A DNA stretch of 64,000 bases, taken from a virus. A model generated the notes under the pieces. That model was not told where the DNA came from and did no database searches. It saw nothing but the letters and a program-made list of their open reading frames with translations. Numbering within the stretch: the first letter of the stretch is position 1; each line of letters begins with the position of its first letter. Location: the IMG/VR virus record IMGVR_UViG_3300046007_007028, positions 8,440 through 72,439 of that record. One strand, written 5' to 3'. The position numbers and the translations under genes were made by a program. This document shows, in pieces, positions 3,374-32,300 of this stretch.

Positions 3374-4025
3374 TTGCGTTCGTTGTAGGGGCTAATAGAG
3401 GCTTTCGTTGGGCAGCGGGATGATATTTGGCTCCAATTGGCTGTACTTCAATTTTCCAAATATACTTGCCTTTATACATTCTGTTGTCTTTTATGCAGTT
3501 CATTACTGTTCTTTGGTTTGTTCCCGTTTGTTTATACAATGATTTAAAGGATTCGTATTCCTCTAATAAAACCCCGCTAGAATCGTATTTAAAGACTTTA
3601 GTTCTTCTGCGAGTTTTTTCTAGGCTTTTTGCATTTTCTCTCCCATGCAGATACCCTAGTTGCCTCATTCTTTCTGCCGCCTTTTTTCTGGAATTATCCA
3701 TAATCCCCGTATCAAAAGCGTGTCTCATATTTTCGGACAAGGTAGTCCACTCCAAATTGCTTGCGCAATTATTCTTTTTGTTGCCGTCTTTGTGATTGAC
3801 CTGTGGCTTGTTTTCTGGGTTCGGAATAAAATGCAACGCCACTAATCTATGAATTGTTCCTCTTTTGTTTTTGCCGCCAACCCACATATTAAAATATTCA
3901 TACCCGTTTTTGCCAAAGTTTGTTTTTGAACTTTTTTGATTTGTTGATCTAAAGTTGCCAAGGTCTGAAATTTCATAAAGACCGTTTGAGTTTTTTACAC
4001 TTACCCATTTTTCTTGCGTTTCCAT
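3354..4025 (-). CDS. NUMOD4-HNH homing endonuclease
   Basis: EKW...GLYEISDLGNFRS; HRLVALHFIPNPENKPQVNHKDGNKKNN..NLEW. Confidence 0.92.
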   Translation of the reverse strand: METQEKWVSVKNSNGLYEISDLGNFRSTNQKSSKTNFGKNGYEYFNMWVGGKNKRGTIHRLVALHFIPNPENKPQVNHKDGNKKNNCASNLEWTTLSENMRHAFDTGIMDNSRKKAAERMRQLGYLHGRENAKSLEKTRRRTKVFKYDSSGVLLEEYESFKSLYKQTGTNQRTVMNCIKDNRMYKGKYIWKIEVQPIGAKYHPAAQRKPLLAPTTNANERMGH

Positions 4026-4029
4026 AAAA

Positions 4030-4134
4030 TGAAAGACCCCGAACTCAAACGCTGCTACACATTCAAATCCGAGGTCAGTTGTTGGTTGTTAAACCAATAT
4101 TTTTTTGCTGGTAGCAGACAGCAATACAAAGGTA
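4030..4134 (-). promoter_or_regulatory. Promoter TACCTTTG plus kissing-loop leader 1
   Basis: Hairpin A loop CUGCUAC (4111-4117) is complementary to hairpin B loop GUAGCAG (4052-4058). Confidence 0.7.
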
Positions 4135-18258: not shown

Positions 18259-18259
18259 A

Positions 18260-18508: not shown

Positions 18509-18618
18509 GATTTTTATTCACCCGACAAAACATCATTTACTTTGAAAAGTACAATCAAACAAGCGTTGCGGCTGCTTATCCTTGCCGCTATCATTTACAT
18601 CTCATTTTTTTAAAACCT

Positions 18619-19485
18619 ATGCAATTACAGAAAGCAACCCGGAAGAAGACGAAGCTACGGCTAAATCTTTCGGCCCCTTCAGGTGCGGGAAAGACCTATT
18701 CAGCCCTTCTTATGGCCAAAGGATTGGTCGGGGATTGGGACAAAATTGCCGTTATTGATACCGAAAACGGTTCGGCATCTCTGTACGAACACCTCGGCCC
18801 GTTCAACGTCATTGACCTTGCCCCACCATTTTCCCCGGAGCGATACATACAAGCCATTGACGCTTGTGTTGCCGCTGGGATGGAGTGCATTATCATTGAC
18901 TCCAGTTCACACGAATGGAGCGGCCCCGGAGGGTGTCTGGAGTCAAACGACGCACTTGCCGCTGCAAAGTTTAAAGGAAACAATTGGGCCGCCTGGAACG
19001 AAACGACGCCCCGCCACGAACGCTTTGTGAGCAAGGTGCTTCACTGCGACGCTCACGTAATTACCTGCACCCGTTCCAAGATGGAGACCGTTCAGGAAGG
19101 GGGAAAGATAAAGAAGTTGGGTATGAAGGACATCCAAAGGGAAAACTGGGAGTACGAATTAACCGTATCGCTATCAATTGATAGAGATACCCACATGGCG
19201 GTCCCAAGCAAGGACCGTACGCAACTGTTTGAGGGCACAGCTCCATTTGTCATCACCGAAGAAACCGGTAAACTGATAAAGGCATGGTGCGAAACCGGCG
19301 TGGTGGACCCGGTCAATGAGTTCCGGGACAAGTTGCGCAAGGTTATTGACAACCCGCTTATCACTCCAGAGGAACGGGCTAAGTGGGAGAACTGGATGCC
19401 GTCTGGCACGGCAGAAACCCTTCAGGGACAGATTGCAAAAGCACAGGAAATGATTAACCAACGCACCAATGAACCTCAACCGTGA
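18619..19485 (+). CDS. AAA_24 / Sak4-like recombination ATPase
   Basis: APSGAGKTYSAL, IDTENGSASLY, IIDSSSHEW. Confidence 0.88.
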   Translation: MQLQKATRKKTKLRLNLSAPSGAGKTYSALLMAKGLVGDWDKIAVIDTENGSASLYEHLGPFNVIDLAPPFSPERYIQAIDACVAAGMECIIIDSSSHEWSGPGGCLESNDALAAAKFKGNNWAAWNETTPRHERFVSKVLHCDAHVITCTRSKMETVQEGGKIKKLGMKDIQRENWEYELTVSLSIDRDTHMAVPSKDRTQLFEGTAPFVITEETGKLIKAWCETGVVDPVNEFRDKLRKVIDNPLITPEERAKWENWMPSGTAETLQGQIAKAQEMINQRTNEPQP

Positions 19486-19657
19486 ACTGACCTGCATCAT
19501 TTCCGACGCCCGGTTGTTTAGCGACGCTGACCGCACCCGATTCAGGGAGCGGACGGCTCGCAGGCCGGTGGAACAGGTTGTTGCCGTGGCCCGTCGGGTG
19601 GAAGCGGCAAGGTGGAAGAAGTGGAAAGAAGAGCATCGTAATTTTTTGATAGGATGA
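19469..19657 (+). CDS. Hypothetical protein
   Basis: Overlap-coupled 62-aa ORF. Confidence 0.5.
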   Translation: MNLNRELTCIISDARLFSDADRTRFRERTARRPVEQVVAVARRVEAARWKKWKEEHRNFLIG

Positions 19658-20166
19658 ATTTATTCAACATTACACACGAACGCAAGCTGCTTATGCAGCA
19701 GTTGGAAGCCGCAGACGGGGAGGCGTCAGAGGAGCTTCTGGAAGAACTTGCAATCAATCGGTCAAACTTTGAAGAAAAGGCCGAAGGATACGCCTACATG
19801 ATGCGCAAACTCGAAACGGATGTGAATGCCGTCAAAAGCGAAATCGACCGCCTGACGGCCCTAAAAACGGCAAAAGAAAGGGCATACGAACGCCTTGAAA
19901 AGACTTTGCTTGATGCCGTTGTTCAATACGGGGAGAAAGGCAAGGACGACGTGGCAAGGGCCGAGGTTGGGACTTTCCGGTTTTCAACCCGTCGCAATCC
20001 CGCTTCGGTTGAGATTTTGGATGAAGAGGCTATTCCAGAGGAGTACAAGGTGAGCAAGACGACGGTGAGCGTAAGCAAGACGACGATCAAAAACGCCTTG
20101 TCTTTGGGGCAGTCCGTTCCGGGGGCGCAGATGAAGGAGGGGGACTTGAGGCTGGTTGTGAAGTAA
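19654..20166 (+). CDS. Siphovirus Gp157 family protein
   Basis: EEKAEGYA...EIDRL..K...RRNP.SV.ILDE..IP.EY...V.GA. Confidence 0.85.
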   Translation: MNLFNITHERKLLMQQLEAADGEASEELLEELAINRSNFEEKAEGYAYMMRKLETDVNAVKSEIDRLTALKTAKERAYERLEKTLLDAVVQYGEKGKDDVARAEVGTFRFSTRRNPASVEILDEEAIPEEYKVSKTTVSVSKTTIKNALSLGQSVPGAQMKEGDLRLVVK

Positions 20167-20185
20167 AAAAATGTTTTTACATTTG

Positions 20186-20640
20186 CAGCGGATAGAAAAC
20201 CAAGCTGAACCGGTTTATTGCCCAACCAACCCCTCATAGGGCAAAAGTGTGCATCCTAATTACCGGTTCAGCCATAGTTTAGCAATAAGCTATGCGGTTT
20301 TTGGGGTGCACACTTTTGTTTTGCCCCTCTTTGGTTTTGACTTTCTACCATAGTCCAAAGACAAAAAGAAAGGCCGTTTGATCCGGCTGGGAGTAATCCT
20401 GAAAACTCGACCACACACAGGCTTGCGATTAAGTCCTGCTCTGACCCAAGGTGTCAACAGGCAACTGGTGCCGGAAGGTAGTAAGTCTGATGAACGAAAC
20501 ACCCAAAGCTGTTAAAGCTGAAGTTAATAAGAATTGGGACAGGACGGAAGTGGTGGTTTGGGTTGAAGTGTTAATAGGAGACACTTAAATCTTGGTACAT
20601 GGGGAACCTATACACCAGGATAAAAACCTTCCTATGATTA
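20186..20640 (+). ncRNA. Large structured RNA / leader (~450 nt) including kissing-loop element 3
   Basis: TACATTTG promoter at 20178-20185, no credible ORF, many local and long-range helices. Confidence 0.65.
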
Positions 20641-20654
20641 AAAACCAATAATTT

Positions 20655-20975
20655 ATGCTACTCCACACAATCGAACGAGGCAAGTATGCGAGGGTGGTCG
20701 CTGAAAGGGTGGTTTACATTGAAGCATCCGGTCAGGACCAAACAACCCTGCACATGACAGACAAACGGATGATTGCGGTACGTGGTGCATTGGGATTGAT
20801 TGCGGCCAAATTCCCGACCTTTTCTCAGGCTGCCAAATATTGCTATGTGAATCCGGACCATGTTTATTCCGTTCGGGTAATTGGTATGAGGGTTCATATT
20901 AAGTTTGGGAATGGGGAGAAGCTGGAGGTGGGCCGGAGCAAAAAATTCTACAAACAATTTTTGTCGTCCCTTTGA
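20655..20975 (+). CDS. Stand-alone LytTR-like DNA-binding protein
   Basis: VVYIEASGQ...TLH...L..I...F.Q..K.CYVNPDHV...LEVGRS, matching LytTR I.YIEA / F.R.HRSY.VN / L.VSR. Confidence 0.75.
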   Translation: MLLHTIERGKYARVVAERVVYIEASGQDQTTLHMTDKRMIAVRGALGLIAAKFPTFSQAAKYCYVNPDHVYSVRVIGMRVHIKFGNGEKLEVGRSKKFYKQFLSSL

Positions 20976-21029
20976 GGGGTTTGGTCGAAGAATTTATATC
21001 TGATTGAGAGGGTGAAATATTTTTGAAAC

Positions 21030-21290
21030 ATGGAAGCAACAAAACCAACAAAACAACAAATCAACGCTGCGGCACTGGAGGTGATTGCTCGTATTTCTGA
21101 AGGTAAGGAACGTGAGAGGCTGGAGAGGGAGGTAGGGGAGGTTCTAAATAAACCAAGAAACATAATTGGAAATGCTTTATGGAATAACGATAATCTAGCA
21201 TTTTCTTTTTGGCCTACTTGGATAGACTGTTGTAATTCAAATGGATACCTTGTCGCCACCTTCAAACTCAAATCCCGCAAAACCGTTTAA
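21030..21290 (+). CDS. Hypothetical protein, leaderless
   Basis: TATTTTTG box at 21018-21025, 4 nt before ATG. Confidence 0.65.
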   Translation: MEATKPTKQQINAAALEVIARISEGKERERLEREVGEVLNKPRNIIGNALWNNDNLAFSFWPTWIDCCNSNGYLVATFKLKSRKTV

Positions 21291-21323
21291 GAACATCCAA
21301 AACAAAACTTTAACAAAAAACAA

Positions 21324-21527
21324 ATGGAAGCAAAAGAATTTTACGACAAAAGATTAAAAGAAGATGGCACTATTGGTAGTGTTCAGCTTATGGAAGAGTA
21401 TGCAAAACACATTATTGAAATAAATTTTTGCGATGGAATCTCAATTGAATTTAATAAGCTGTCAGTAGAAGATTTAAAACGTATGCATAGGGCGGTAAGC
21501 TTATGTGTCATGTGGGTCAACACTTAA
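21324..21527 (+). CDS. Hypothetical protein
   Basis: 67 aa. Confidence 0.6.
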   Translation: MEAKEFYDKRLKEDGTIGSVQLMEEYAKHIIEINFCDGISIEFNKLSVEDLKRMHRAVSLCVMWVNT

Positions 21528-21548
21528 TTACTTAACCAAACCATTCAA

Positions 21549-22052
21549 ATGATCTTCCTGCAAACCTCCGCCACGACCTTCCACCAGATTGATGCTGGGG
21601 AGGTGGTATTTATTAACACAACAATCAATACAATCTTGCACAAGGATAATATTATCAATTATTCCGATGACTTTGAGGGCAGGATTGTTCAGGAATTGGT
21701 TCGGGCCAATCCAATGATTTCTAAAGTGAACGAATCGGAGTATCTGAATCGGAACAAGATTGACCGGATTGAAAGGATTGGATACGACTACCATGCCTAC
21801 ATTTCCGGAAGTCCATTTAGACTCGACCCCAACTGCCTTCTGGTCCACCTTACATTCAAAAAAAGCTATGTGAAAACAGCAAAGCAATACATCAATAACT
21901 TGGACAACCAGGGCATCATTGATTCAATAATCCTTGGTCCGGGAACCGTGGAACACAAAATACGGAGGATTGCAAAAGAGGACATTGGCGAAACGGTCAA
22001 TACCTACTACATCAACAAAAGGAAGAGGGAATTGAAAGCGAAAAACAAATAA
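21549..22052 (+). CDS. Divergent LytTR-like protein with C-terminal extension
   Basis: QIDAGEVVFI...SKVNESEYLNRNKIDRI resembles LytTR pattern. Confidence 0.5.
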   Translation: MIFLQTSATTFHQIDAGEVVFINTTINTILHKDNIINYSDDFEGRIVQELVRANPMISKVNESEYLNRNKIDRIERIGYDYHAYISGSPFRLDPNCLLVHLTFKKSYVKTAKQYINNLDNQGIIDSIILGPGTVEHKIRRIAKEDIGETVNTYYINKRKRELKAKNK

Positions 22053-22056
22053 GAGC

Positions 22057-22317
22057 ATGAAAACCAAAAACATCCGGGACTTTGTAATCGTCCCAACAAC
22101 GCCCGAAGAGGCGCAAAAGGTAGCAGATCGGCTGGTGGAGATGGGGGAGCCTGTATTTGAGCCGGAGGAGTTTGCTAAATGTTTTAATCGTTTCCGATGG
22201 GTGACGTTTGATGGGGATGATTGGGTCCAAAATAAGCCAAATTTTGAAAACCGCCCCCGCATCTCAGCAGCCGATTTTTTGGCGGGGGATACTCAAAAGA
22301 TTTTGGAGGTGGAGTAA
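22057..22317 (+). CDS. Hypothetical protein
   Basis: 86 aa. Confidence 0.65.
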   Translation: MKTKNIRDFVIVPTTPEEAQKVADRLVEMGEPVFEPEEFAKCFNRFRWVTFDGDDWVQNKPNFENRPRISAADFLAGDTQKILEVE

Positions 22318-22382
22318 GTATTCAACCAAAACCAATCCAGAGCCGTAAAAAGCAACAAAATAAAAACCTTTAATTTTACGAC

Positions 22383-23639
22383 ATGAAAAACCTCTTTCTC
22401 CTCGCAGCCTTCCTGATGGTATTGGGAAGCTGCACACGCAAACTTATCACGCCACAAACCGACGAATTGGTTGTAACCTCCGACGAAGTTCCTGGACCAC
22501 AAGAACTGTCAATGTTCCGCACCGCAAGTGAACCGGATTTCTGGGAACCAACTTACCGAAGCTACCGGATTGTTCCGTTCTACATCGAAGTTGATTCAAT
22601 CTACAACGCTCACTGGCGACCTTTTACCGAAGACACGGTAAGAGCCAGATTTGCCAGGATTGCATGGAACATGGAACGCCAGACGGGACTAAGGTTTACA
22701 ATTAGCCAAATCAAAATCCTAACCCGCCACGACATTGTAAGCCGTCAGACAAACGGAAATAATATGCTGTTTCAGTTTTCATCAACGGTTCCAAGGGTAG
22801 GCAACAACTTTATGCTAAGGATCTCAGGACGTTCTGGATTAGGTGGTTCGGCCTTCATATCCAGAGGAAGCCTGACAACTGCACCATACGCCATTTCTGG
22901 CTTCGGCAAAGCGATTGCAGGAGGGTTTGATAAGCCCGGAAACGACGAGTACGCCATTGGCCACGAAATCCTGCATAACTTGGGAATCTCACATTCCCAT
23001 AACTGTTGCGAGTGGTACACCAAGGACGGCAGACCATTGGGCAGACTTGATTCAGCAGCAGCCGGGGAAACAACTTGTTCACCTGTTCCGATCCGTTGTA
23101 ACAGGACGACCATACGCCAATCGGGAGGCTGGAATAGTTATGCTCATATTTGGGGACAGGCAACCTACACCCTGCATCCATCGGTATTGGCTAAGCTACA
23201 TCGGGCCGTGTTTTATTCAAGCCTTCAGACTTATACCCCGACACAACCACCATTACCACCCGTTACTACTTGCAGCACTCAGGTAGCCCACACATCAGCC
23301 ACAGGAAGTCATCCGGGCTTTGATAAGGCATTGGATGGTATTGACAACACAAACGCTTCCAGATGGGTTGTAAATGCCCCACAAACAAGCCTGACCTTGA
23401 CCTACAACAATGCCAGCGTGGATTGCATCCGGATATGGACAGGGTACTTGTCTGGCTCAACATGGGGCAGCCCAATCAGGCAAGCAATCGTATCGGTAAA
23501 CGGCACTCAGTTATTAGCCGTTCCTGGTGCTTTGGAGATCAACATTCCGGTTAATCGGGCTGGGGTGAATACCATTAAGATTGATTTCTTTGCGTTGGAT
23601 AGCCATGTAAGAATTAGAGAGGTTAGGGTTTTGGATTAG
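22383..23639 (+). CDS. Lipoprotein zinc metallopeptidase (metzincin, M12-like) with C-terminal F5/8C-like domain
   Basis: Lipobox LGSC; HEILHNLGISH; Pro/Thr linker; KALDG...SRW...IREVRV. Confidence 0.8.
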   Translation: MKNLFLLAAFLMVLGSCTRKLITPQTDELVVTSDEVPGPQELSMFRTASEPDFWEPTYRSYRIVPFYIEVDSIYNAHWRPFTEDTVRARFARIAWNMERQTGLRFTISQIKILTRHDIVSRQTNGNNMLFQFSSTVPRVGNNFMLRISGRSGLGGSAFISRGSLTTAPYAISGFGKAIAGGFDKPGNDEYAIGHEILHNLGISHSHNCCEWYTKDGRPLGRLDSAAAGETTCSPVPIRCNRTTIRQSGGWNSYAHIWGQATYTLHPSVLAKLHRAVFYSSLQTYTPTQPPLPPVTTCSTQVAHTSATGSHPGFDKALDGIDNTNASRWVVNAPQTSLTLTYNNASVDCIRIWTGYLSGSTWGSPIRQAIVSVNGTQLLAVPGALEINIPVNRAGVNTIKIDFFALDSHVRIREVRVLD

Positions 23640-23642
23640 GTT

Positions 23643-23733
23643 GCATAAAGTTCCGCAGATAAGCGAAGGCACAAATAGCGTTGGCTTTAGCAAGGGATTT
23701 GGGCTTTTGCTTATGTGCTGTTAGCAGAAGTAC
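23643..23733 (+). repeat. attC-like imperfect palindrome
   Basis: gcagataagcgaaggc...gcttttgcttatgtgc stem ending in GTTAGCA. Confidence 0.55.
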
Positions 23734-23774
23734 GGTCAATTTTAAACGAATTTTTAACTTAAATAAATAACAAA

Positions 23775-24044
23775 ATGAAAGTAACAGTAACAGAGGATTT
23801 AGGTATCCAATTAGAAGAAGTTTTTAGCGGTTTAACTTTAAAAACCGAAAGTGGGGAAACAATGTCAATTTGTATGCGAGATAGTGGCTTTGAGTTTAAT
23901 TATCAAGGCGAGTGGTATTTTGCAAAAGAAGGATATGTTGAGCCATTTCACAAGTCAGTTAGAGATAACTATTTAGTTTCTGAATTGCAAAGACACGACC
24001 ATAATTTAGATGCAGATGCAATGCCTGTTAGTAACGGTCAGTAG
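23775..24044 (+). CDS. Hypothetical protein in cassette-like unit
   Basis: AT-rich ORF bracketed by inverted repeat 23720-23733 / 24044-24057. Confidence 0.75.
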   Translation: MKVTVTEDLGIQLEEVFSGLTLKTESGETMSICMRDSGFEFNYQGEWYFAKEGYVEPFHKSVRDNYLVSELQRHDHNLDADAMPVSNGQ

Positions 24045-24101
24045 TATTTCTGCTAACTCGTAAATATCCGCAATCAACCTAACCAACAAAACCAGCGAAA
24101 G

Positions 24102-24458
24102 ATGAACTACGAAAAGCTATTTAATTATTTCCATGAGCAACATGGGATAAGTCTGTTGCTAACAGATATGCAGGAGGTTGCCCGTATTGTTAAGGAAGTG
24201 GAAGAGCCGGGAAGCACGAAGCCAACTTGTCCGATAATTGACGTTTGTGGGTTTACTATTGACTTGCGAAAAGTTGAGCGTGTTACTCCGGTCGGTGGCG
24301 ATAAAAACCATTTGTCATATATGGTTTATTTTACAGGCGGCAATAAAATAGAAATTCCTCATGCACAGCAATTTGCCAACGGGAAGAAATTTGACCACAT
24401 GGAACGGGAAAAGTTTGTTGAATTATGGAAATCTTTTAATCTGAGTATCCATGCTTGA
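24102..24458 (+). CDS. Hypothetical protein
   Basis: 118 aa. Confidence 0.7.
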   Translation: MNYEKLFNYFHEQHGISLLLTDMQEVARIVKEVEEPGSTKPTCPIIDVCGFTIDLRKVERVTPVGGDKNHLSYMVYFTGGNKIEIPHAQQFANGKKFDHMEREKFVELWKSFNLSIHA

Positions 24459-24660
24459 AATCCTCATAACCGGCTTCCTTCTGTTTGTGGCTTATGTCAT
24501 CTATCACCACAACCGCTACACCTACGGCCACTGCAACGGCATACCGGCGCGGAAGCATTGGGCATCTGGAGTGGTTGAGATGAAGTTGGAGCAGGAATGG
24601 GTCGTGATGTCCCGGAAATATTGGAAGGAGTTTACAGCGTATAAAGACCTTGAAAAGTGA
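24451..24660 (+). CDS. Small N-anchored membrane protein
   Basis: N-terminal hydrophobic helix. Confidence 0.6.
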   Translation: MLEILITGFLLFVAYVIYHHNRYTYGHCNGIPARKHWASGVVEMKLEQEWVVMSRKYWKEFTAYKDLEK

Positions 24661-24680
24661 GAATTTGGTTAAATGACTGG

Positions 24681-24711
24681 AAAGGCCGCTTGAATTTTGA
24701 GCGGTTTTTTT
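24681..24711 (+). terminator. Intrinsic terminator between convergent units
   Basis: ccgcttga-attt-tgagcgg-ttttttt. Confidence 0.75.
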
Positions 24712-24723
24712 ATTTCCCTTCCA

Positions 24724-24933
24724 TTATTTCTCTGGCATATCCACCTTGTTATACTTGCTAACCAATCGCCTAAACTGGTCCACAAATTGACCTAAAATAT
24801 AGATCAGGATTGCATCGGTTGTGTCTATCTTCCCAAATTTGTAAAGCCATCCAACTCCAATAAGAAGCCCGACAAGGATTGCGCTTGTTAAAAGGAAGGA
24901 GATAAACTGAATTGTTCTTTGCCAATCCCACAT
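24724..24933 (-). CDS. Small 2-TM protein, holin candidate
   Basis: Two TMs, basic tail, own TATTTTTG box at 24938-24945, near endolysin. Confidence 0.5.
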   Translation of the reverse strand: MWDWQRTIQFISFLLTSAILVGLLIGVGWLYKFGKIDTTDAILIYILGQFVDQFRRLVSKYNKVDMPEK

Positions 24934-24948
24934 TCCACAAAAATATCT

Positions 24949-25079
24949 TATATTTGCATGGCTTCCAATAGGAAGCAACCAACGGACTAGGTTGGACAAG
25001 AAACTGGGAGAAATCCCATAACACGGCCCTGAATTGGCGTAGCTAGTCCCTGCGTTGATTTGGGGCTTTTGTTTTTAAG
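24949..25079 (+). promoter_or_regulatory. Promoter TATATTTG plus kissing-loop leader 2
   Basis: Loop GGACUAG (24984-24990) complementary to loop CUAGUCC (25043-25049). Confidence 0.72.
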
Positions 25080-25592
25080 ATGGATAAGTATTTAAAATTT
25101 GTTGAAGCAGGGCTAAGAGTTTCTAAGGATGGAGTAGTCTACGGCAAAAGAGGGAAAGAAAGAGTATTATTCACCAACAATTCAGGTTATTCAATAACCC
25201 ATTTTCTATATAAGGGGAATCCCATAAACGTCTTGGTGCATCGACTTGTCGCAATGGCATTTATCCAAAATCCATTGGGTCTTTCTCAGGTAAACCATAT
25301 CAACGGGATAAAATCCGACAATCGAGTGGAAAATTTAGAATGGTGCTCTGTGAGCCAAAACATACGTCACAGATTTTCATCTGGCATAACATCTTTGCAA
25401 TCGCAATCTCGTCCTTCTTTACAAAATGGAAGATGCAGGAAGGTGCACCAAATTAAAAATGGGGTAATTATTGATACATTCCCTTACATGGTGGCTGCCG
25501 CACAAGCTGTTGGCGGCACAGCCTCGTGCATTAGAAATGTTTGTGCTGGTAGGGCTTCATCGCACAAGGGCTTTCAATGGGAGTACGCTTGA
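25080..25592 (+). CDS. HNH homing endonuclease with NUMOD1-like C-terminus
   Basis: VHRLVAMAFIQNP...VNHINGIKSDNRVENLEW; I.NVC.GR...KGFQW. Confidence 0.92.
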   Translation: MDKYLKFVEAGLRVSKDGVVYGKRGKERVLFTNNSGYSITHFLYKGNPINVLVHRLVAMAFIQNPLGLSQVNHINGIKSDNRVENLEWCSVSQNIRHRFSSGITSLQSQSRPSLQNGRCRKVHQIKNGVIIDTFPYMVAAAQAVGGTASCIRNVCAGRASSHKGFQWEYA

Positions 25593-25622
25593 TCCTTTTG
25601 CCTGTTATGTCGGAGTTGAATT

Positions 25623-26066
25623 TCATGGCTTCACAATCAACAATCCTTTTGCATTTGGGACCCACCTTGAGTCTGCATGAAGCCATCGCGGGGTCGCAGA
25701 AATGTCCTCTACGGCCCTGATAGACGTTTTGGCAATTACCTCTTCCTGGTTATCCAAAAGCCACTTGTATAGCTCCTCAACAGTCATATCCGGACTATCA
25801 AAGTCGGTGGCGTTCATTTTGTAGGAATGCTGGCTCCACGGATTGAAAGACGGTGCGTCGGGCGTTCTCAGGCCCCGCCAGAAATGTACGGGGTTCTTGG
25901 TGTGCCAGTTGTTTACAACAAGGCGCACTCCTGTCCGGGTCCGGAGCCACTGCATTGCCTCAACTTGCTCCCTGACCAGAAACCACGTAGAATTTGCGCC
26001 CCACTTTTGATAGGTGGACCGGCTTACAAATTCTTGGATGTCAAAGTTGGTTGTGAGATTGCCCAT
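25623..26066 (-). CDS. Endolysin, peptidase M15 family
   Basis: NF...EF, GLR, SQH...ATD, WLHAD Zn-ligand pattern. Confidence 0.85.
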   Translation of the reverse strand: MGNLTTNFDIQEFVSRSTYQKWGANSTWFLVREQVEAMQWLRTRTGVRLVVNNWHTKNPVHFWRGLRTPDAPSFNPWSQHSYKMNATDFDSPDMTVEELYKWLLDNQEEVIAKTSIRAVEDISATPRWLHADSRWVPNAKGLLIVKP

Positions 26067-26136
26067 TAGTCCACAAAATAATGGGTTTGGTCGAAAACTG
26101 CAAAATGGATTTATTGGGAAGGGGTAGGTTTGGGGA

Positions 26137-26325
26137 ATGGAAAATACTTATACTCCAATCATTGTAGACCTTGTTTACACCAATTTTGAATCCAATCTTT
26201 TAAAGCAAGATGGGAAGAAAATAGATATGGGGAAATTATCTATCACCGCAATTTTGGCAACCCAAAAGGACGTTGAGGGAATAATCAATCAACTGGAAAT
26301 CATCAAACATTGTTTTAAGAAGTAA
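26137..26325 (+). CDS. Hypothetical protein, leaderless
   Basis: TAGGTTTG box at 26125-26132. Confidence 0.6.
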   Translation: MENTYTPIIVDLVYTNFESNLLKQDGKKIDMGKLSITAILATQKDVEGIINQLEIIKHCFKK

Positions 26326-26495
26326 TGAAACAAATCCTTCTAACCCTAATCGACCGCCTATTCCCCGCCAAGTGCAAGCATGAGTGGGAGGATAAATATA
26401 TGGTTTCGGTAAAAAATGAGATTGGTCAAGTATATAAGACAAGAGTAACTTTGGCTTGCAAACATTGTGGTGAGATTAAACAGATGAGTTTATGA
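26325..26495 (+). CDS. Small Zn-ribbon protein (56 aa, not in track)
   Basis: CKHEW...CKHCG. Confidence 0.65.
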   Translation: MKQILLTLIDRLFPAKCKHEWEDKYMVSVKNEIGQVYKTRVTLACKHCGEIKQMSL

Positions 26496-26746
26496 CAAAA
26501 ATCAAATTTATTGCTGTCCCAATCCGTATCGGGAAAGCAGCAGCCCTAAATCAATGGCTTGACGGCTTTTGTGAAATCCACGACATTGATAGAGACAAAG
26601 TCAATGTCGTAATGGCTGGGAAATCTGCTGTGCTAAGAATTACGATTGCCAGTTTAGAGCATATCAAACTTTTGTCGGACGGGTTGAAGGATGTGGTGGA
26701 GAAGGCGCCTACCTCAACCCCGCAAAATACTCAACCGACCTCCTGA
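26492..26746 (+). CDS. Hypothetical protein
   Basis: Coupled ORF. Confidence 0.55.
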   Translation: MTKIKFIAVPIRIGKAAALNQWLDGFCEIHDIDRDKVNVVMAGKSAVLRITIASLEHIKLLSDGLKDVVEKAPTSTPQNTQPTS

Positions 26747-27008
26747 CCCTTTTCCATCGTCCCCGCCTTCCTTCTTCGACAAACAAAAAGCTGTCCGCCT
26801 GTATAGCCACCGGAAAAACATAGTTCATGTCCCGGATTAGATATGCCTGTTCCCGTTCCTGGGCCCGGAGCCTGTCCTGAAGCTGTAATGTCAGCAACGC
26901 AAGCGAATCAAACTCCGCACGAGATACGGGCCTTTCAGATGGGATATGAACCGTCGGGCCGGTGCAGGCGGTGGTTAATAATAATAATACGAACGCAATC
27001 TTTTTCAT
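26709..27008 (-). CDS. Lipoprotein, spanin-like candidate
   Basis: MKKIAFVLLLLTTAC lipobox plus coiled coil. Confidence 0.55.
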   Translation of the reverse strand: MKKIAFVLLLLTTACTGPTVHIPSERPVSRAEFDSLALLTLQLQDRLRAQEREQAYLIRDMNYVFPVAIQADSFLFVEEGRRGRWKRVRRSVEYFAGLR

Positions 27009-27349
27009 TTTTTGAACCCTAAATAAACCCCAACAATATGCCAAACTTTTGCCCATCCCTTCCTTTTGAGGCCCTCCACGGCCTCCCGCTTCAACACGGG
27101 CTTGACCTGCGTGTCCCATTCGGGTTTACGAACGTCCCTGAGTCGCTTGTAGGTGTCGAGCATGGCATTTAAGATACGCCAGCCGAGAAGCAATAGCCAT
27201 CCATGGGTGAATAGCCATTGCTCCCAATCGGGGAAGTCCGGTTTGATCTGAAGAAAAACGGCCCCGGCTCTAATTCCCCAGAAAACAGACTGATCCTGAA
27301 GGGTATGAATGTAGTCTTCTTTTAGGTTACAAAAAAACCGGGTCGGCAT
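27005..27349 (-). CDS. Membrane protein, holin/spanin candidate
   Basis: Hydrophobic Trp-rich segments, lysis context. Confidence 0.45.
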   Translation of the reverse strand: MPTRFFCNLKEDYIHTLQDQSVFWGIRAGAVFLQIKPDFPDWEQWLFTHGWLLLLGWRILNAMLDTYKRLRDVRKPEWDTQVKPVLKREAVEGLKRKGWAKVWHIVGVYLGFKK

Positions 27350-27747
27350 TACTCCTCTGTCTTGCGGTGGTAGTACAAGGTGTCGGGTGTCGCAGTTTTC
27401 CATCCGGGTAGTCCGAAGATGTAGGCGATGGCTTGGGCTCCGGTGATTTCATGTCCCTGAACTCTTTTGTTTCCAAGCAAGCCAGTCAGCCTTTCTTCCA
27501 TGGCAAAACCATTAATTCGGAAAGTTGTTTCAATTTTCCAGCCTTTTGAGGACATTTCCCCTGGTAATTGCCGGTTATCCATCCCGATTGCAAACCCCTC
27601 TGAGGTCATCAGGGCGTGGCACAAAGAATCCCCGTGCTTAACCAGCAAACACGGAATCCGCTCGATACGGGTATAAAGTCCGAAAAAGGACCTGACGGGC
27701 CGCTGGATAATGCGCACATCCCACGGCTTTGGGCTGTTATGCTTCAT
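27349..27747 (-). CDS. Hypothetical protein
   Basis: Start MKHNSPKPWD. Confidence 0.6.
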   Translation of the reverse strand: MKHNSPKPWDVRIIQRPVRSFFGLYTRIERIPCLLVKHGDSLCHALMTSEGFAIGMDNRQLPGEMSSKGWKIETTFRINGFAMEERLTGLLGNKRVQGHEITGAQAIAYIFGLPGWKTATPDTLYYHRKTEE

Positions 27748-28117
27748 TTTCGTTTGGCTCAATAAGGACGACAATAATCTTTTCCAGCAAAGCGGGTGCA
27801 ATCGTTCCGGTTTCGTTGGAGATGTCAATCATTTTCAGATCGAGGTCCTCTGTTTCCTGCAAGGCTTCCCAGCGGGTCGAAACGGCGGCATCGGCTTTTT
27901 GGGACATTGCCACAAACTCTTGGTAGGCGATGTCTTTGGCCCCGTCTTTCAAGGCATCCATCTCCTTTTGAACTTCTTCGGAAAACCTCTTCCCGATCCA
28001 TTTAAGCCTATCAAGATTGCGGGCAACCCGGTAAGCGGTAGTGTGCGACAGCTCCTTAGCTGCAAGCTCTCTGAGGCCAAAATACAACTTGGCGGCTTCT
28101 AAAATCTGTAACTTCAT
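27737..28117 (-). CDS. Helical protein, possible tail-fibre assembly chaperone
   Basis: AYRVARNL..L motif; follows fibre genes. Confidence 0.55.
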   Translation of the reverse strand: MKLQILEAAKLYFGLRELAAKELSHTTAYRVARNLDRLKWIGKRFSEEVQKEMDALKDGAKDIAYQEFVAMSQKADAAVSTRWEALQETEDLDLKMIDISNETGTIAPALLEKIIVVLIEPNENEA

Positions 28118-28136
28118 GTGTAAAAAATTTCTGCAA

Positions 28137-28499
28137 TTATACATTAAATCTTCCAAGGTTGTCAGCCCACTCAATCTTGGCCTCGACGAATTGATTGATA
28201 ACAACCGGCTGCCCCATCAGCATAATGAAGAAGTCAAATTCAGACATTATCCCGCCCTCATCAACAAGCTGGCCCTGCTGGTTCACCATCTGGTCTTTGG
28301 TGGCCCTTAGCGTGTACCATTTGGCCGGCATGGGATGGGCGGTTTTGACCTCGTCTTTGATGAAGTAGTGGTCAATCCGGATGCGAAGTCCGACCCCGAA
28401 TCCGAACTCTGGATCAGCGTCGACAACAAGGCCGGAAAAAGAGGCTTCCCGAAGGATATTGCTATCAATGGGGTGTATGGAGATTTCGATTGGAGTCAT
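28137..28499 (-). CDS. Hypothetical tail-associated protein
   Basis: 120 aa downstream of fibres. Confidence 0.65.
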   Translation of the reverse strand: MTPIEISIHPIDSNILREASFSGLVVDADPEFGFGVGLRIRIDHYFIKDEVKTAHPMPAKWYTLRATKDQMVNQQGQLVDEGGIMSEFDFFIMLMGQPVVINQFVEAKIEWADNLGRFNV

Positions 28500-28504
28500 A
28501 GTTT

Positions 28505-29341
28505 TTATACGTTTCTACCTAAAGCAGTTTGAAATGCGTTCACTAAAATCAAGGCTATACGGGCCTGTTCGTCGGTAAGGCCTTTCCCGCCAGCACCGAA
28601 AGAGATTTGCTGAGTTGAAGCAAAATCCCTGCCCGTAGCCCCGTTTCTTGTCCCGTAGTAGAGGTTTCGGTTTGGCCTCGTAGTTGATGCCACGGTTATT
28701 GTTCTGTTAAGCCGATCCCGAATCCACAACTGCATAATGTTGGATGCCTGCCTGTTTGCAAGCCATGCCCCTTGGGTATTGGTTATCCCCAAAGCAAAAG
28801 CCGCTCCCGCAGCGGTCGCATTCAGGGTTCCGTTCCCGTTAAAAGCTGTGCGTGAAGCATTTATCTGGTGGAGATTGGTCCCGTCGCCCGCTCCAAATAA
28901 TACGGTTGCGGCGCCAGAATCCGTCCGGGTGTAAACCATTAGACTTGCATCATTGAGAAGCCCTGCCGTTGATGGGTTGTATCCAAAGTCGGCATAATTG
29001 GGCGTAGGATTTGATGCAAATGCGGGTGTCATTCCCGTCGAAGCGTGCGTCCATGTGCCAAAAAAAGTGGTATTGTATGCGTTCTTCATATCCAAGGCAT
29101 GAGTCGCCGACAAGCCGCCGACTATCGGGTGTATAAAGTCCCATTCATCCCAAATCCCATTCACCACCAGTCCCCATGTAAGGGCGTTGAGAGCATTGAT
29201 AACAGGAACAGTCGGCTCGTATCCAGCAACGTCAAGCCGGTTTAGAAAAGACAGGCAAAAAGGATGAATGTTATCCGGAATAAACGTCGAGGTGGTCCCC
29301 ACGACTACCGTTCCTGATCCGCTTATGGCTGTGAGTGGCAT
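28505..29341 (-). CDS. Tail fibre/spike-associated protein, LamG/lectin-like
   Basis: GIWD...P..GG, GLTD...VNAFQTALGR. Confidence 0.65.
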   Translation of the reverse strand: MPLTAISGSGTVVVGTTSTFIPDNIHPFCLSFLNRLDVAGYEPTVPVINALNALTWGLVVNGIWDEWDFIHPIVGGLSATHALDMKNAYNTTFFGTWTHASTGMTPAFASNPTPNYADFGYNPSTAGLLNDASLMVYTRTDSGAATVLFGAGDGTNLHQINASRTAFNGNGTLNATAAGAAFALGITNTQGAWLANRQASNIMQLWIRDRLNRTITVASTTRPNRNLYYGTRNGATGRDFASTQQISFGAGGKGLTDEQARIALILVNAFQTALGRNV

Positions 29342-29348
29342 GATTTTA

Positions 29349-32300
29349 TCAATTCAAATAATGCGCATAAACCTGAGTTGCCGTAATGGTATTTGAGGCG
29401 CTTGCTGACCCCCATTCGGCCTGAACATCAAACGAAACAGTTGAAGTCATGTTGATGGCACCGGGAACGGCAGGAATATCAAAGCCAGAATCATGCCCGC
29501 TTGTAGTCTCAAAATAAGCCGAACCGCCCGCCCGAACCGTTCCGGAAGCCCCGGTAGTGATGCAAACTATCGTGGCGTTAATTTCCCAATATTTTGAGGA
29601 CATGGACCCTGAATGGAGGAGAGGAATAGTCGCCACCGTAACGCCCCCAATGATAATAAGAATATCGACGTTGTTTGATCCACTATTTGTCCCCCATTCC
29701 CCAGATGCAAATACTTTGATGGTTTTCCCAACCCCAAAGAATCCGGACGGCAGGGTGGTTGAGCCTGTGACTGAGCCGATGATGGAAGTGGGGTCCGTAT
29801 CATTTGTTACCGCCGCAGCAGGAGTAGTGACAGAAAATATCCCCAAAGCCGTCAGGTCCGAGGACTTGGTTAGGTTCCCGGATGAATCCGATACCACCAC
29901 GCCAGAAGAAGACCCGGTGGCAAAGTCAGGGTTGCGGTCAAGGGTAATGAATTTGGTTACCGCTGAGTCTTTGTAGAAAAGCAGGGATGTATTGGTGGGA
30001 GAACCAGTATTCATCCACATTGCCCCGTTTGTTGTCAGGGTTGGCGTAACCCCGGACATTGGAACAAAGATGGCGTGAGGAATAGATGCCGTCGCCCCGG
30101 AAATGTGCATTAAAGCCGTTGGCGTTGTAAGGCCGATACCCACCAGTCCCGCCGTTACCAGCAAGGCATAGTTGTTTGTTCCGCCCGATGCCGTTAGGGA
30201 CAAGGCGATGTTGGTGGTCCCTCCAGTAGCCGTCGAAGAAAGCCCGACATTAGTAGAAGTTCCGCCCGTATGGGTATTAGAAAAAGACCCAGCAGTCGTA
30301 GTTTGGCCTGCCGTCCCATTCGCCCCCGACAATCCCACCGAAAAAAGCGTCTGAGCGTTTGATGCCGCAGCGGTCGACGTTGAGGATAACCGGAAGGCCG
30401 TCGCCCCCGCCAAGGTGTTCCATTGCCATTCCTGAGCGAAATTCCCGTTCCCGGTGATGGTATTGCTTCCTGTTGCAGAGGTCAAAGCCGACAACGCCGT
30501 AGAACCGCCTCCTCCGCCCGTTACCCAACTCAGCACTCCAGACCCGTTCGTTTGAAGCACCTGTCCGGAAGTCCCGTCTGCCGTTGGCAGCGTGTACGTT
30601 ACCGATGCCGAGGCCACTCCGGATTGGATGGTGGTGGTATTGGCGTTGGTTCCGTTGCGAAAAACAATCGCCCCCGCAATCGAAGAGGCCGTACCCAAAG
30701 TCAGGGCCGATGCCCCCGTGGCGACAAGGCCGACGAAAGTACCGACGCCGGAATCATTTAGGGTAGCGGCGGAGTTTTGAATAAGCTTCCCAGTGGTGCC
30801 ATCAAACCTCGTAAAAGCATTGTCAGTAGCCGATCCTGGCCCCACCACATCCCCCGTTCCCGCTACGTTGGCCCACGAAGGAAGTCCGGACGCCAAAGTC
30901 AATACCTGACCATTCGAGCCAACCCCAAGCCTTGTGAACAGGCCGCCAGAATTTCGGTAGTAAATATCCCCCGTCGCATCCGAGCCTACGTTAATTACGG
31001 GGGAAGTCAGGGTTTTGTTTGTTAATGCCTGAGTGGTGGCCTCCCCAACGAATGTGTCGCTCGAATCAGGAACAATCCACGAAACAGCACCGGTCAGTAA
31101 AGAAATATCAAAGACAAGGCTCGATGAGGGCGATGTAGCGTCGTCGGCTATAAAGAAATTCGCAGCCGTAACCCACAGGTCCGACCCGTCAGTTATCATG
31201 CGGGCAAACCCGTCAAAAGCCCCAGCGTTGTTCCACTGAATTTCCCCGCTTGAACCTCCCGGAGTTCCGCCACCGCCACTTGATGTAAGCACCCCAGACC
31301 CAGACAAAGAAAGGCCAGAGCCAATCGTTATTTGCTGAATATCCCCTGAGCCCGCACCCCAACGACCAAGTAAGATTGCCGTTGATACATTCTGCATCTT
31401 AGCAAATGATACGGCATCGTTGGCTATGGTCATTACCCCGTCCTTATCCAAAGACCCGTCACCGGACATTGGAACCCCCACAGCCGCATTGGCGTCGCTT
31501 CCAACAAAGATGTAGGCTTCTGTCAGGGTATCATCAAGCTTATTTGCCAAAGCATCTGTAAGCCCAAAGACCTGACTCTGCGCAATCGTCGGAATATCTC
31601 CCGCAACCAGAGTGTCCCAGACGGGGGCCGTTGCCGTGCCCAATGTTGACAAAGACCGTAGAAATTTGCGGGTATTGGTGGTGTCCCCGGCAAGCCTTGT
31701 TGGCGACCCTAATGCTGCCCCGTAGATAATGTCCCCCAAAGTAGTCATCGGGTTTGTCAGGGAACTGATGGTGGCGTATTCAAGCTCTGTTCCGCCAGCA
31801 TTTACCCTCAAAACCTGCAAGGCCGACCCAAGCGTGGTAAGGCCCGTACCACCATAAGCAATCTGAATCGTATTCCCCTGCCATGTGGTTGATGTAATTG
31901 GCGAGGTTACCCTTATGCGGGATGTGGCATCGTCGTAGCTTAGATTCGTCCCAAGGGTTACAAACCTTGCCGCTGCCGAGCTCTGGTCCCAAAAGAAAAA
32001 GGCATCTGCCGCCGGGGCAGATAAAACCGTTTGAGTGCCACCATAGGCCAGTGCCACGGGATCAGCCTCCCATGCACCCTGCACCACCGACCCAACGATC
32101 AGATCAGACCCAATCGTTACATCCGTTGCCGTCCCGCCAATAAGCAAAGACCCCGCAGAATCAATACCAAAACCCGTCGAGAAATTCAGGGTTCCGGTCA
32201 TTGTGTCCCCGGCCTTTAGCACATACAAAGACAGATCCGGAGCCGATGGAAGGGTCGCCCATTCCAAAGCCGTAGCCCCGGCGTTCACCCTCAAATATTG

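What the first reader, a model, noticed from the sequence alone, without database searches (positions are those of the whole stretch)
24949..25079. Kissing-loop leader 2 gating the second HNH, with an orthogonal 7-nt code
Seen: TATATTTG; hairpin gcuucc-aaua-ggaagc; hairpin A ccaac-GGACUAG-guugg; GAAA hairpin uggga/uccca; 18-bp G.U-rich hairpin B with loop CUAGUCC; uuuuguuuuu; ATG at 25080. The A and B loops are exact complements and differ completely from leader 1. Inference: a modular family of self-regulating expression cassettes that travel with homing endonucleases, where loop sequence gives specificity and avoids cross-talk.
Basis: partly seen in the sequence, partly recalled or inferred. 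Interest (0 to 1): 0.78.

Follow-up and report, generated by a model that had tools for sequence, protein, structure and literature searches.

The report
Kissing-loop leader RNA of phage genes
A short folded RNA between a promoter and a phage nuclease gene has two hairpin tips that pair with each other on a terminator-like stem; it belongs to a large uncatalogued family that probably limits expression of the downstream gene.

Summary
At 24949-25079 (+) there is a Bacteroidota-type -7 box, four hairpins, a U-tract and the ATG of an HNH_3 gene. The 7-nt loops of hairpin A (GGACUAG) and of the 18-bp G.U-rich hairpin B (CUAGUCC) are exact complements.

It is not chance. The same build recurs at 4134-4023 (-) with other loop letters. 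My screen found 13 distinct copies in 739 kb of phage DNA: 22 hits before duplicates were removed, against 0-1 in 12 shuffles.

A loop-blind box pattern found 121 IMG/VR matches. Of these, 101 carry a complement of 7 nt or more, and all 99 recognised by a backbone profile carry 6 nt or more. Loop-loop pairs covary like ordinary stems. Rfam 15 has no match.

The family is not HNH-specific. In the loop-blind sample, 67 of 112 copies precede Lin1244_N replication-initiator-like genes and about 19-23 precede nucleases.

The most likely function is a promoter-proximal, kissing-loop-bearing intrinsic terminator and translation block that throttles the gene. This is inferred; no RNA data exist. "Self-regulation" and an "orthogonal code" are untested. 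This scan has already reported the family in at least 8 other genomes.

The parts
24949..24956 (+). -7 promoter box TATATTTG (TAnnTTTG type). With G at -5, the predicted transcript start is 24961.
   Evidence: Sequence. Consensus and numbering T-12 A-11 T-8 T-7 T-6 G-5 come from passages of PMC6847099. 89 of 112 family members have TAnnTTTG within 45 nt upstream.
24961..24976 (+). 5'-terminal hairpin gcuucc-AAUA-ggaagc. It is an extra hairpin that most family members lack.
   Evidence: The variant contigs keep it as gcuuuc/ggaagc (my reading of the loose-end consensus).
24979..24995 (+). Hairpin A, ccaac-GGACUAG-guugg. The loop at 24984-24990 is one kissing partner.
25005..25018 (+). Spacer hairpin uggga-GAAA-uccca.
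   Evidence: The population variant 25018 A>G turns U-A into U.G, so the pair is kept.
25025..25067 (+). Hairpin B: 18 pairs (7 G.U), loop CUAGUCC at 25043-25049 (the other kissing partner), G+C-rich base. It has the shape of an intrinsic terminator.
25068..25076 (+). U-tract uuuguuuuu directly after hairpin B, 3 nt before the ATG.
25080..25592 (+). HNH_3 endonuclease gene (170 aa), the gene headed by the leader.
   Evidence: PF13392 E = 1.3e-08; phrog_59 E = 7.3e-36.
4023..4134 (-). Leader 1, the paralogous copy. It has TACCTTTG, hairpin A uugcug-UCUGCUAC-cagcaa, a small hairpin, an 18-bp G.U-rich hairpin B with loop GUAGCA(G), UUUCAUUUU, then the ATG of the second HNH_3 gene (3354-4025).
20178..20326 (+). 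Possible third, atypical copy. It has TACATTTG, GCUGAACC (20204-20211) complementary to GGUUCAGC (20265-20272) at the tip of a 24-bp stem with a side hairpin, then a U-rich run. No ORF follows for about 330 nt.
   Evidence: z = -5.03. The location came from earlier notes. Membership was not tested further.
24719..25617 (.). Segment that varies between strains. It holds a 69-aa membrane ORF (-), leader 2 and the HNH gene.
   Evidence: One contig joins 24718 to 25618, and other contigs run on unlike the window at 24711/24718/24721 and 25618.

Best explanation
WHAT IT IS (well supported). Leader 2 is one copy of a widespread, uncatalogued 5' leader RNA module of phages with Bacteroidota-type promoters. 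The module runs from a TAnnTTTG -7 box to the start codon.

The transcript is predicted to begin at the first base of a 5' hairpin. A promoter-proximal hairpin A shows a 7-nt loop. A long hairpin B shows the exact Watson-Crick complement in its own loop. B has a G+C-rich base followed directly by a U-tract, and the ATG lies 0-13 nt further on. The two loops pair (a kissing-loop or pseudoknot contact), and selection keeps that pairing through compensatory changes.

HOW IT WORKS (inferred). Hairpin B plus the U-tract acts as an intrinsic terminator placed between the gene's own promoter and its ATG, so most transcripts would stop as an RNA of about 90-115 nt. In read-through transcripts the base of B sits inside the -20..+20 initiation region and the context upstream of the ATG is U-rich, so translation would also be damped.

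The kissing contact with the flush 5' hairpin locks the leader into one compact fold. That sets how often the terminator forms and protects the RNA ends. The net effect is low, insulated expression of genes that are harmful in excess, such as homing nucleases and replication initiators. Whether the kissing contact favours or opposes the terminator is not settled.
For: Structure:
- Folds.
- The architecture repeats in 13 distinct copies with 10 different 7-mers, with 22 raw hits against 0-1 in shuffles.
- In the loop-blind sample, 101 of 121 pattern matches have a complement of 7 nt or more. Mismatched partners reach that in 80 of 2196 trials.
- All 99 backbone-recognised copies have 6 nt or more, and 89 of them have 7 nt or more.
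- Covariation: in A5 all 28 kissing cells pair and 4 of 7 pairs change on both sides. In A6 (53 distinct rows, none dropped) 80.6% of kissing cells pair and 5 of 7 pairs change on both sides. Over the whole 18-pair structure 86.5% of cells pair, against 57.4% at most when the 3' partners are slid.
- The same box pattern in bacterial genomes gave 120 matches, of which only one (L501) looks real.

Terminator reading:
- B heads the printed list of terminator-like sites locally and has the most stem pairs.
- In every copy I listed, a G+C-rich base is followed at once by a run of about 9-12 nt in which 7-9 are U.
- The 7 G.U pairs of 18 make the stem specific to one strand (my reading).

Translation damping: in Flavobacterium, structure within -20..+20 lowers initiation and A at -3 raises it (passages of PMC6847099).

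Flush 5' hairpin: follows from the G(-5) rule in the same paper applied.

Precedents: free-standing homing nuclease genes in T4-type phages are limited by terminators and hairpins (passages of PMC2988022).
Against: - No transcript data exist. None of the 24 listed sequencing runs is RNA, so termination at 25068-25076 is unproven.
- B is much longer (15-24 bp) than the short G+C-rich stems with 4-nt loops described for T4 and E. coli intrinsic terminators (passages of PMC2988022).
- A U-rich tract next to the ATG could instead be the ribosome landing site.
- A terminator that nothing relieves, in front of a replication-initiator gene, is an odd design.
- In the one studied system with this topology (guanidine-IV riboswitch), the kissing loop opposes the terminator (passages of PMC11611296). 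That is the reverse of a 'clamp'.
- My rough length estimates suggest that with 12-14-nt spacers and 22-24-bp B stems (G001, G002) the kissing contact and a fully closed B may strain each other. With 18-21-nt spacers (G005) they need not.
Confidence: 0.5

Rival explanations
1. The kissing loop acts as an anti-terminator, as in guanidine-IV. Loop A captures loop B as soon as the upper part of B is made. Because the linker is short, the kissing contact then hinders closure of B's lower stem. Kissing would mean read-through and an open start site, and loss of kissing would mean termination. The strength of the 7-bp helix, or something that competes for it, would set expression.
For: - The topology matches that described for the guanidine-IV riboswitch. 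[quoted passage not shown]
- The loop-to-loop distance is nearly constant at 38-43 nt in 11 copies although arm lengths differ.
- Many B stems have a lower stem, an internal loop and an upper stem.
Against: - There are no conserved loop nucleotides to form a ligand pocket. The loops are fully Watson-Crick and vary freely.
- Copies with 18-21-nt spacers and 15-16-bp B stems (G005, L230, L172) leave ample linker for both structures at once.
- In leaders 1 and 2 of this window, B is one unbroken 18-bp helix and the linker carries an extra hairpin.
Confidence: 0.18
2. The leader is an mRNA stabiliser and translation module, not a terminator. The flush 5' hairpin, the kissing contact and the long stem would form a nuclease-resistant cap on the mRNA, and the U-rich tract would be the ribosome (bS1) landing site.
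For: - The predicted start is at the first base of the 5' hairpin in leaders 1 and 2 and in the box subfamily (using the rule).
- The module always ends at the ATG.
- The commonest client is a replication-initiator-like gene, which must be expressed.
Against: A G+C-rich stem base followed at once by a run of about 9-12 nt in which 7-9 are U is the canonical terminator signature and is kept in every copy listed. The contexts mostly lack the favourable A at -3 (against passages of PMC6847099).
Confidence: 0.14
3. The leader is the target of a trans-acting factor. It would be a promoter-proximal terminator unit that a phage or host antiterminator opens at the right time, recognising the shape of the kissing complex rather than its letters. 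The closest model is lambda PR'-6S RNA-tR' released by Q.
For: - Promoter, then short structured RNA, then terminator, then genes is the layout of lambdoid late units (recalled knowledge).
- There are several units per genome.
- One client gene encodes a protein with RNA polymerase alpha-CTD and sigma-70 region 4 matches (L312).
Against: No antiterminator candidate was identified, and I did not annotate the whole record for one. The units head single small cassettes as well as operons, and loop letters vary freely.
Confidence: 0.1
4. The leaders act in trans or as dimers. Terminated leader RNAs would pair through their loops with nascent leaders, or with other finished leaders, that carry the same 7-mer pair. 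This would give dosage-dependent feedback like plasmid countertranscript attenuation, with a separate code for each unit.
For: - Each multi-copy record uses different loop pairs (G000, G003, G005, L279).
- The main client is a replication-initiator-like gene.
- The predicted 7-bp helices are stable, at -7.0 to -10.7 kcal/mol.
Against: Nothing here separates cis from trans pairing. Different loops within a genome are also what drift predicts. The same 7-mer occurs in two unrelated phages.
Confidence: 0.06
5. The element is a DNA-level signal or a chance inverted repeat with no RNA role.
For: The module boundaries coincide with recombination joints in the lake population.
Against: 7 of 18 pairs in B are G.U, so the stem forms on one strand only. 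Compensatory changes are seen, and shuffles give 0-1 hits against 22.
Confidence: 0.02

Closest known systems
Guanidine-IV (mepA motif) riboswitch
   Same: In both, the loop of a 5' hairpin forms a kissing contact with the loop of a second hairpin whose extended stem plus poly-U is the terminator in front of the gene (passages of PMC11611296).
   Different: There the contact needs guanidine and the family is defined by conserved nucleotides. Here the loops are free-varying 7-mers with full Watson-Crick pairing, no conserved pocket is seen, and cmscan finds no Rfam family. The clients are phage genes, not guanidine exporters.
Regulatory hairpins and terminators of free-standing homing nuclease genes in T4-type phages (mobE, segB, segF, seg43(25))
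   Same: Self-contained nuclease cassettes whose expression is held down by intrinsic terminators and by stable hairpins at or just upstream of the start site (passages of PMC2988022).
   Different: Those are single hairpins that hide a Shine-Dalgarno site, or terminators inside the ORF. No loop-loop contact is described, and their logic depends on late promoters placed inside the hairpin. Here the promoter lies upstream of everything, and the host type lacks Shine-Dalgarno use (passages of PMC6847099).
Lambdoid PR' - 6S RNA - tR' unit released by Q (recalled, no call)
   Same: A constitutive promoter, a short structured RNA and a strong terminator, then the genes.
   Different: That is one unit per phage, for the late operon, and it has no kissing loops. 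No Q-like factor was sought or found here.
ColE1 RNA I/RNA II and pT181/pIP501 countertranscript control (recalled, no call)
   Same: Fully complementary 7-nt loops that kiss. In the pT181 type, kissing decides whether a terminator forms ahead of a replication-initiator gene.
   Different: Those act in trans between two RNAs transcribed from opposite strands. Here both loops lie on one RNA.
HEARO / IscB omega RNA (HNH-associated RNA; the name is recalled)
   Same: A structured RNA next to an HNH-domain gene.
   Different: No Rfam match at gathering score, nor at E up to 10 in 24850-25150. The protein is a 170-aa HNH_3 nuclease with no other Pfam domain match, whereas IscB carries a RuvC domain as well (recalled).

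Membership tests
Kissing-loop leader family of Bacteroidota-type phages (uncatalogued; defined here and in earlier notes of this scan) | TAnnTTTG box within about 25 nt upstream of hairpin A | tested here: met
   TATATTTG at 24949-24956. 89 of 112 loop-blind members have it within 45 nt.
Kissing-loop leader family of Bacteroidota-type phages (uncatalogued; defined here and in earlier notes of this scan) | Loop of hairpin A is an exact complement of 7 nt (6 or more) of the loop of the long hairpin B | tested here: met
   GGACUAG/CUAGUCC. Family-wide.
Kissing-loop leader family of Bacteroidota-type phages (uncatalogued; defined here and in earlier notes of this scan) | B has a G+C-rich base, then a U-tract, then the ATG within about 13 nt | tested here: met
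   GGCCC/GGGGCU, uuuguuuuu, ATG 12 nt after the stem.
Intrinsic (factor-independent) terminator / leader attenuator | G+C-rich hairpin followed directly by a U-run | tested here: met
   First in the printed list of terminator-like sites. The stem is unusually long (18 bp) and rich in G.U.
Intrinsic (factor-independent) terminator / leader attenuator | RNA 3' ends in the U-tract, that is, premature transcripts | not testable with these tools
   No RNA run holds the stretch.
Guanidine-IV riboswitch (mepA motif) | Match to the curated covariance model, with conserved aptamer nucleotides | tested here: not met
   No Rfam hit at gathering score. Only four sub-threshold hits to unrelated families at E up to 10. 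Loop letters vary freely.
Guanidine-IV riboswitch (mepA motif) | Kissing loop between the 5' hairpin and the hairpin that extends into the terminator | tested here: met
   Same topology (compared with passages of PMC11611296). This is a resemblance in mechanism only.
Riboswitch in general | Conserved unpaired nucleotides that form a ligand pocket | tested here: not met
   In A6 the only invariant columns are the two boxes the search demanded. No primary sequence is shared across subfamilies.
HEARO / omega RNA of IscB | Match to the Rfam model, with a neighbouring IscB (RuvC + HNH) gene | tested here: not met
   The protein is 170 aa and only HNH_3 was found.
T4-type translational hairpin of homing nuclease genes | Hairpin hides a Shine-Dalgarno site, and a late promoter inside the hairpin relieves it | tested here: not met
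   There is no Shine-Dalgarno site, and the promoter lies upstream of all hairpins (compared with passages).

The most novel reading that the evidence does not exclude
The leaders could be a sense-strand version of plasmid countertranscript control. If a fully closed terminator stem cannot coexist with the cis kissing contact, as in guanidine-IV, each terminated leader would leave both 7-nt loops free. These short RNAs would build up with phage genome copy number. They would then kiss nascent leaders of the same code in trans and shift the choice between termination and read-through.

This would give each unit (replication initiator, each nuclease cassette) its own dosage-sensing feedback channel. 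It would also make the 7-mer pair a true orthogonal address that co-infecting phages with the same code could read.
Probability: 0.1. Interest if true: 0.9.

Novelty: new variant of a known kind. Interest (0 to 1): 0.66.

Why it matters
If the reading holds, uncultured phages with Bacteroidota-type promoters share a compact, portable unit (promoter, leader, terminator, start codon). Its key contact is a programmable 7-bp loop-loop helix on the tip of a terminator.

- It would add a well-populated RNA family to the catalogue. One subfamily alone gave more than 100 copies in IMG/VR.
- It would be a natural case of a ligand-free kissing loop joined to a terminator.
- It would be a concrete handle on how selfish nucleases and replication initiators are kept at low dose in hosts that lack Shine-Dalgarno-led initiation.
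- The free choice of loop letters makes it directly testable by loop swaps, and potentially useful as a set of orthogonal expression parts for Bacteroidota.

Tried and rejected
Searches for close relatives of the locus:
- No DNA match in the phage collection.
- The endolysin query found no relative in IMG/VR.
- The 17-mer of hairpin A hit two unrelated contigs only.
- The 35-mer of hairpin B hit nothing in metagenome contigs.
- HNH2 has no relative above 47% identity, apart from a truncated identical copy. Direct comparison of orthologous leaders was therefore not possible.

Expression: no RNA holder is listed among the 24 runs.

Screens that gave little:
- MFE-based survey of HNH upstream regions: 1 of 76 had a 7-nt loop complement and the rest 4 nt or less. 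Distant HNH_3 genes mostly lack the leader. My screen saw 8 distinct leaders in front of the matched HNH gene among 253 HNH loci fetched.
- The loose hairpin-pair criterion showed no enrichment over controls.
- The lenient stem-extension scan gave many false positives and was replaced by the filtered screen.
- That general screen also missed many true copies: it found none in 60 of 120 loci that hold a box match. Its counts are therefore lower bounds.

Other points:
- The hit at 13833-13774 (-) is only the two strands of a + strand terminator stem, not a leader.
- MAFFT could not align all subfamilies in register, so I built no covariance model. In A6 about 12 of 53 rows have their loops out of register. 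I kept them, which lowers the kissing-helix figure to 80.6%.
- A short ORF (ATG 24958 to TAG 24988-24990, inside loop A) is probably upstream of the transcript start. Other copies do not share it, so I rejected it as a leader peptide.
- An antisense role against the (-) strand membrane ORF is specific to this locus and does not apply to leader 1, so I rejected it as the general function.
- The box pattern in bacterial genomes gave 120 matches with only one convincing copy. I did not look up the organism of L501.
- Literature searches for a prior description found none. These cover only the held open-access library. Supplements were not opened.

Full report
THE OBSERVATION.
- TATATTTG at 24949-24956.
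- gcuucc-AAUA-ggaagc at 24961-24976.
- Hairpin A, ccaac-GGACUAG-guugg, at 24979-24995.
- uggga-GAAA-uccca at 25005-25018.
- Hairpin B at 25025-25067, with loop CUAGUCC at 25043-25049.
- uuuguuuuu at 25068-25076.
- ATG at 25080.

RNAfold gives exactly these four hairpins (-48.6 kcal/mol, z = -3.93, 0 of 200 shuffles as stable). B has 18 pairs, of which I count 7 as G.U, so the stem forms only on the + strand RNA. Of the 20 terminator-like sites printed for 18000-30000, B is listed first and has the most stem pairs. The ORF is an HNH_3 endonuclease (PF13392 E = 1.3e-08; phrog_59 E = 7.3e-36).

It sits on the + strand between two - strand genes: a 69-aa membrane ORF (24724-24933, no family hit) and an endolysin-like gene (25623-26066, phrog_894 E = 2.5e-10). 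The promoter and leader can therefore serve only the HNH gene.

A SECOND AND PERHAPS A THIRD COPY IN THE RECORD. The window is part of a 72,439-nt IMG/VR virus record that holds two HNH_3 genes. The other gene (3354-4025, -) is preceded by the same build. It has TACCTTTG, hairpin A with loop UCUGCUAC, a small hairpin, an 18-bp hairpin B (again 7 G.U) with loop GUAGCA(G), UUUCAUUUU, then ATG. The 7-nt complement is CUGCUAC/GUAGCAG.

A strict scan of both strands of the whole record found this build at these two places only. Earlier notes pointed me to 20178-20326. There GCUGAACC and GGUUCAGC are complementary on a more complex 24-bp stem. I regard that as a possible atypical third copy.

A FAMILY. 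In loci around HNH_3 relatives and in five whole virus records, my screen asked for a TAnnTTT[G/A] box, a hairpin A, a long hairpin B with a 7-nt complementary loop, a U-rich tail and an ATG. It found 16 distinct hits. Thirteen had at least 3 G/C in the 7-mer and a convincing build. Three were A/T-only and spurious.

The 13 use 10 different 7-mers. The raw count was 22, because some loci duplicate parts of the whole records. Each of 12 dinucleotide shuffles of the same 739 kb gave 0 or 1.

That screen demands complementarity, so I ran two loop-blind tests.
- First test: a descriptor without any complementarity rule gave 33 candidates. Six had a 7-nt complement and 27 had 4 nt or less, with nothing in between.
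- Second test: four related leaders shared two boxes, AACUUAUU in the spacer and UUUUAUUUUAUG at the end.

Results of the second test:
- 101 of 121 matches have a perfect complement of 7 nt or more between the 30 nt upstream of the first box and the middle of B.
- With mismatched partners, 80 of 2196 trials reach that.
- Of the 99 matches that a backbone profile recognises, all 99 have 6 nt or more and 89 have 7 nt or more.
- About 25 different loop pairs occur.
- The same pattern in the bacterial genome collection gave 120 matches. Only one looks like a real leader (L501, before an HNH-like ORF). The other cases of 7 nt or more are A/T runs.

COVARIATION.
- On a MAFFT alignment of the four founders (A5), all 28 kissing cells pair, and 4 of 7 pairs change on both sides with none on one side only. 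One example is GUCGGAU/AUCCGAC against GUCGUAU/AUACGAC.
- On 53 distinct leaders (A6, no rows dropped), the kissing helix has 80.6% of cells paired and 5 of 7 pairs with double changes. The two parts of stem B have 87.5% and 92.5%.
- Over all 18 pairs 86.5% of cells pair. Sliding the 3' partners by 1-3 columns drops that to 29-57%.
- The roughly 12 unpaired rows are ones MAFFT put out of register. Read directly, they pair.
- The loop-loop contact is thus conserved like an ordinary helix.
- Predicted duplex energies of the 7-mers are -7.0 to -10.7 kcal/mol.

WHAT THE LEADERS HEAD. The HNH association partly reflects how the first examples were found. In the box sample, drawn without regard to the gene, the 112 good copies break down as follows:
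- 67 precede Lin1244_N proteins. Distant relatives of these in cultured phages are annotated as replication initiation proteins.
- 16 precede another family with no Pfam hit.
- 12 precede a cluster with NUMOD1/I-HmuI-like domains. It includes HNH_3 genes.
- 6 precede NUMOD3 proteins.
- 1 precedes a GIY_YIG_2 protein.
- 4 precede small proteins that look HNH-like to my eye only.
- The rest are assorted: a methylase-helicase fusion, and a protein with RNA polymerase alpha-CTD and sigma region 4 matches.

Among the six whole records, 7 of 9 clear leaders precede HNH_3 genes and 2 precede non-nuclease genes. The module is therefore a general head for small self-promoted units and early operons, and homing nucleases use it often.

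MODULARITY IN THE WILD. Lake-water metagenome contigs laid on 23800-26600 show two things.
- One contig joins 24718 to 25618, skipping 899 nt. Several others run on with unlike sequence at 24711/24718/24721 and at 25618. The block holding the membrane ORF, leader 2 and HNH is therefore a strain-variable insert.
- Contigs in three runs match only 24970-25075, with one difference: 25018 A>G, which turns a U-A pair of the GAAA hairpin into U.G. Upstream they continue with another TAtcTTTG box and a diverged 5' hairpin. Downstream they continue with a different ORF. The leader core thus occurs nearly identical in front of another gene.

HOST TYPE AND TRANSCRIPT START. The -7 box TAnnTTTG, with G at -5, is the Bacteroidetes consensus (passages of PMC6847099). 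Applied here, it puts +1 at 24961, the first base of the 5' hairpin. In leader 1 and the box subfamily it puts +1 at the first base of hairpin A.

The same paper reports that these bacteria lack Shine-Dalgarno-led initiation. It also reports that structure within -20..+20 lowers initiation and that A at -3 raises it. In the leaders, the 3' arm of B ends 0-13 nt from the ATG, and most contexts are U-rich.

MECHANISM. Shown: the architecture, its recurrence, and selection for loop-loop pairing. Inferred: B plus the U-tract is an intrinsic terminator between the promoter and the ATG. It would make most transcripts stop as a short RNA, and in read-through RNA it would also occlude the initiation region. 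Together these throttle the gene. The kissing contact fixes the fold.

The direction of its effect is open. The guanidine-IV riboswitch has the same topology, and there the kissing loop hinders the complete terminator stem for steric reasons tied to linker length (passages of PMC11611296). The near-constant loop-to-loop distance (38-43 nt in 11 copies; 52 nt in the two copies of this window, which carry an extra spacer hairpin) hints at a geometric constraint. However, copies with long spacers and short B stems leave room for both structures.

I put 0.5 on the throttle reading as a whole. The rivals are an anti-terminator kissing loop, a pure stabiliser/translation module, a factor-opened gate, and trans-acting feedback.

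COMPARISON AND NOVELTY. No Rfam 15 family matches the window or 14 related loci. Five literature searches found no description. Known relatives in kind are leader attenuators, the guanidine-IV kissing-loop/terminator switch, and the hairpins and terminators that limit T4-type homing nuclease genes (passages of PMC2988022).

The element fails the membership tests for each named family, so it is a new variant of a known kind. This scan had already reported the same family in at least 8 other genomes. I reached my counts independently, but I took from those notes the position of leader 3 and the guanidine-IV comparison.

Noticed in passing
window 24719-25617: This block is a strain-variable insertion site. 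One lake-metagenome contig joins 24718 to 25618, and others continue with unrelated sequence at 24711/24718/24721 and 25618. Two of those unrelated continuations begin with TATTTTTG or TATATTTG boxes.
   Followed up: partly
window 24970-25075: The leader core occurs with 1 mismatch in other contigs of the same lake community. There it lies behind a different promoter box and in front of a different ORF. Leaders may therefore serve as recombination joints between modules.
   Followed up: partly
window 24724-24933 (-): A 69-aa ORF with one hydrophobic stretch lies divergent from the leader promoter and downstream of the endolysin-like gene. It has no Pfam or PHROG hit. It could be a holin or spanin, or cargo of the insert.
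   Followed up: no
window 13776-13852: A branched G+C-rich hairpin followed by a T-run lies between two + strand genes. It looks like an ordinary terminator. My loop-pair scan first mistook its two strands for kissing loops.
   Followed up: yes
window 24958-24990: A 10-codon ORF (ATG 24958) ends at the TAG inside loop A. The ATG lies just upstream of the predicted transcript start, and other copies do not share the ORF.
   Followed up: partly
alignment A6 (loci L271-L390): In the box subfamily the spacer AACUUAUU is invariant by design of the search, but it was already invariant in the four founders. Many B stems also carry the internal loop UGAA opposite GGAU. To my eye this could form tandem G.A pairs and bend the stem.
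   Followed up: no
L312:2206-2991 (-): One leader heads a 262-aa protein with an RNA polymerase alpha-CTD domain (E = 2.6e-20) and a weak sigma-70 region 4 match. It may be a phage transcription factor.
   Followed up: no
G005 (L269:591-679): An unrelated leader in another phage uses the same 7-mer pair, GGACUAG/CUAGUCC, as leader 2, with quite different stems. A-loops are also biased towards starting with G (10 of 13) and GU.
   Followed up: no
L501 (genome collection): This is the only convincing leader among 120 box matches in bacterial genome records. It lies before an HNH-like ORF. I did not look up its organism, which could name a host.
   Followed up: no
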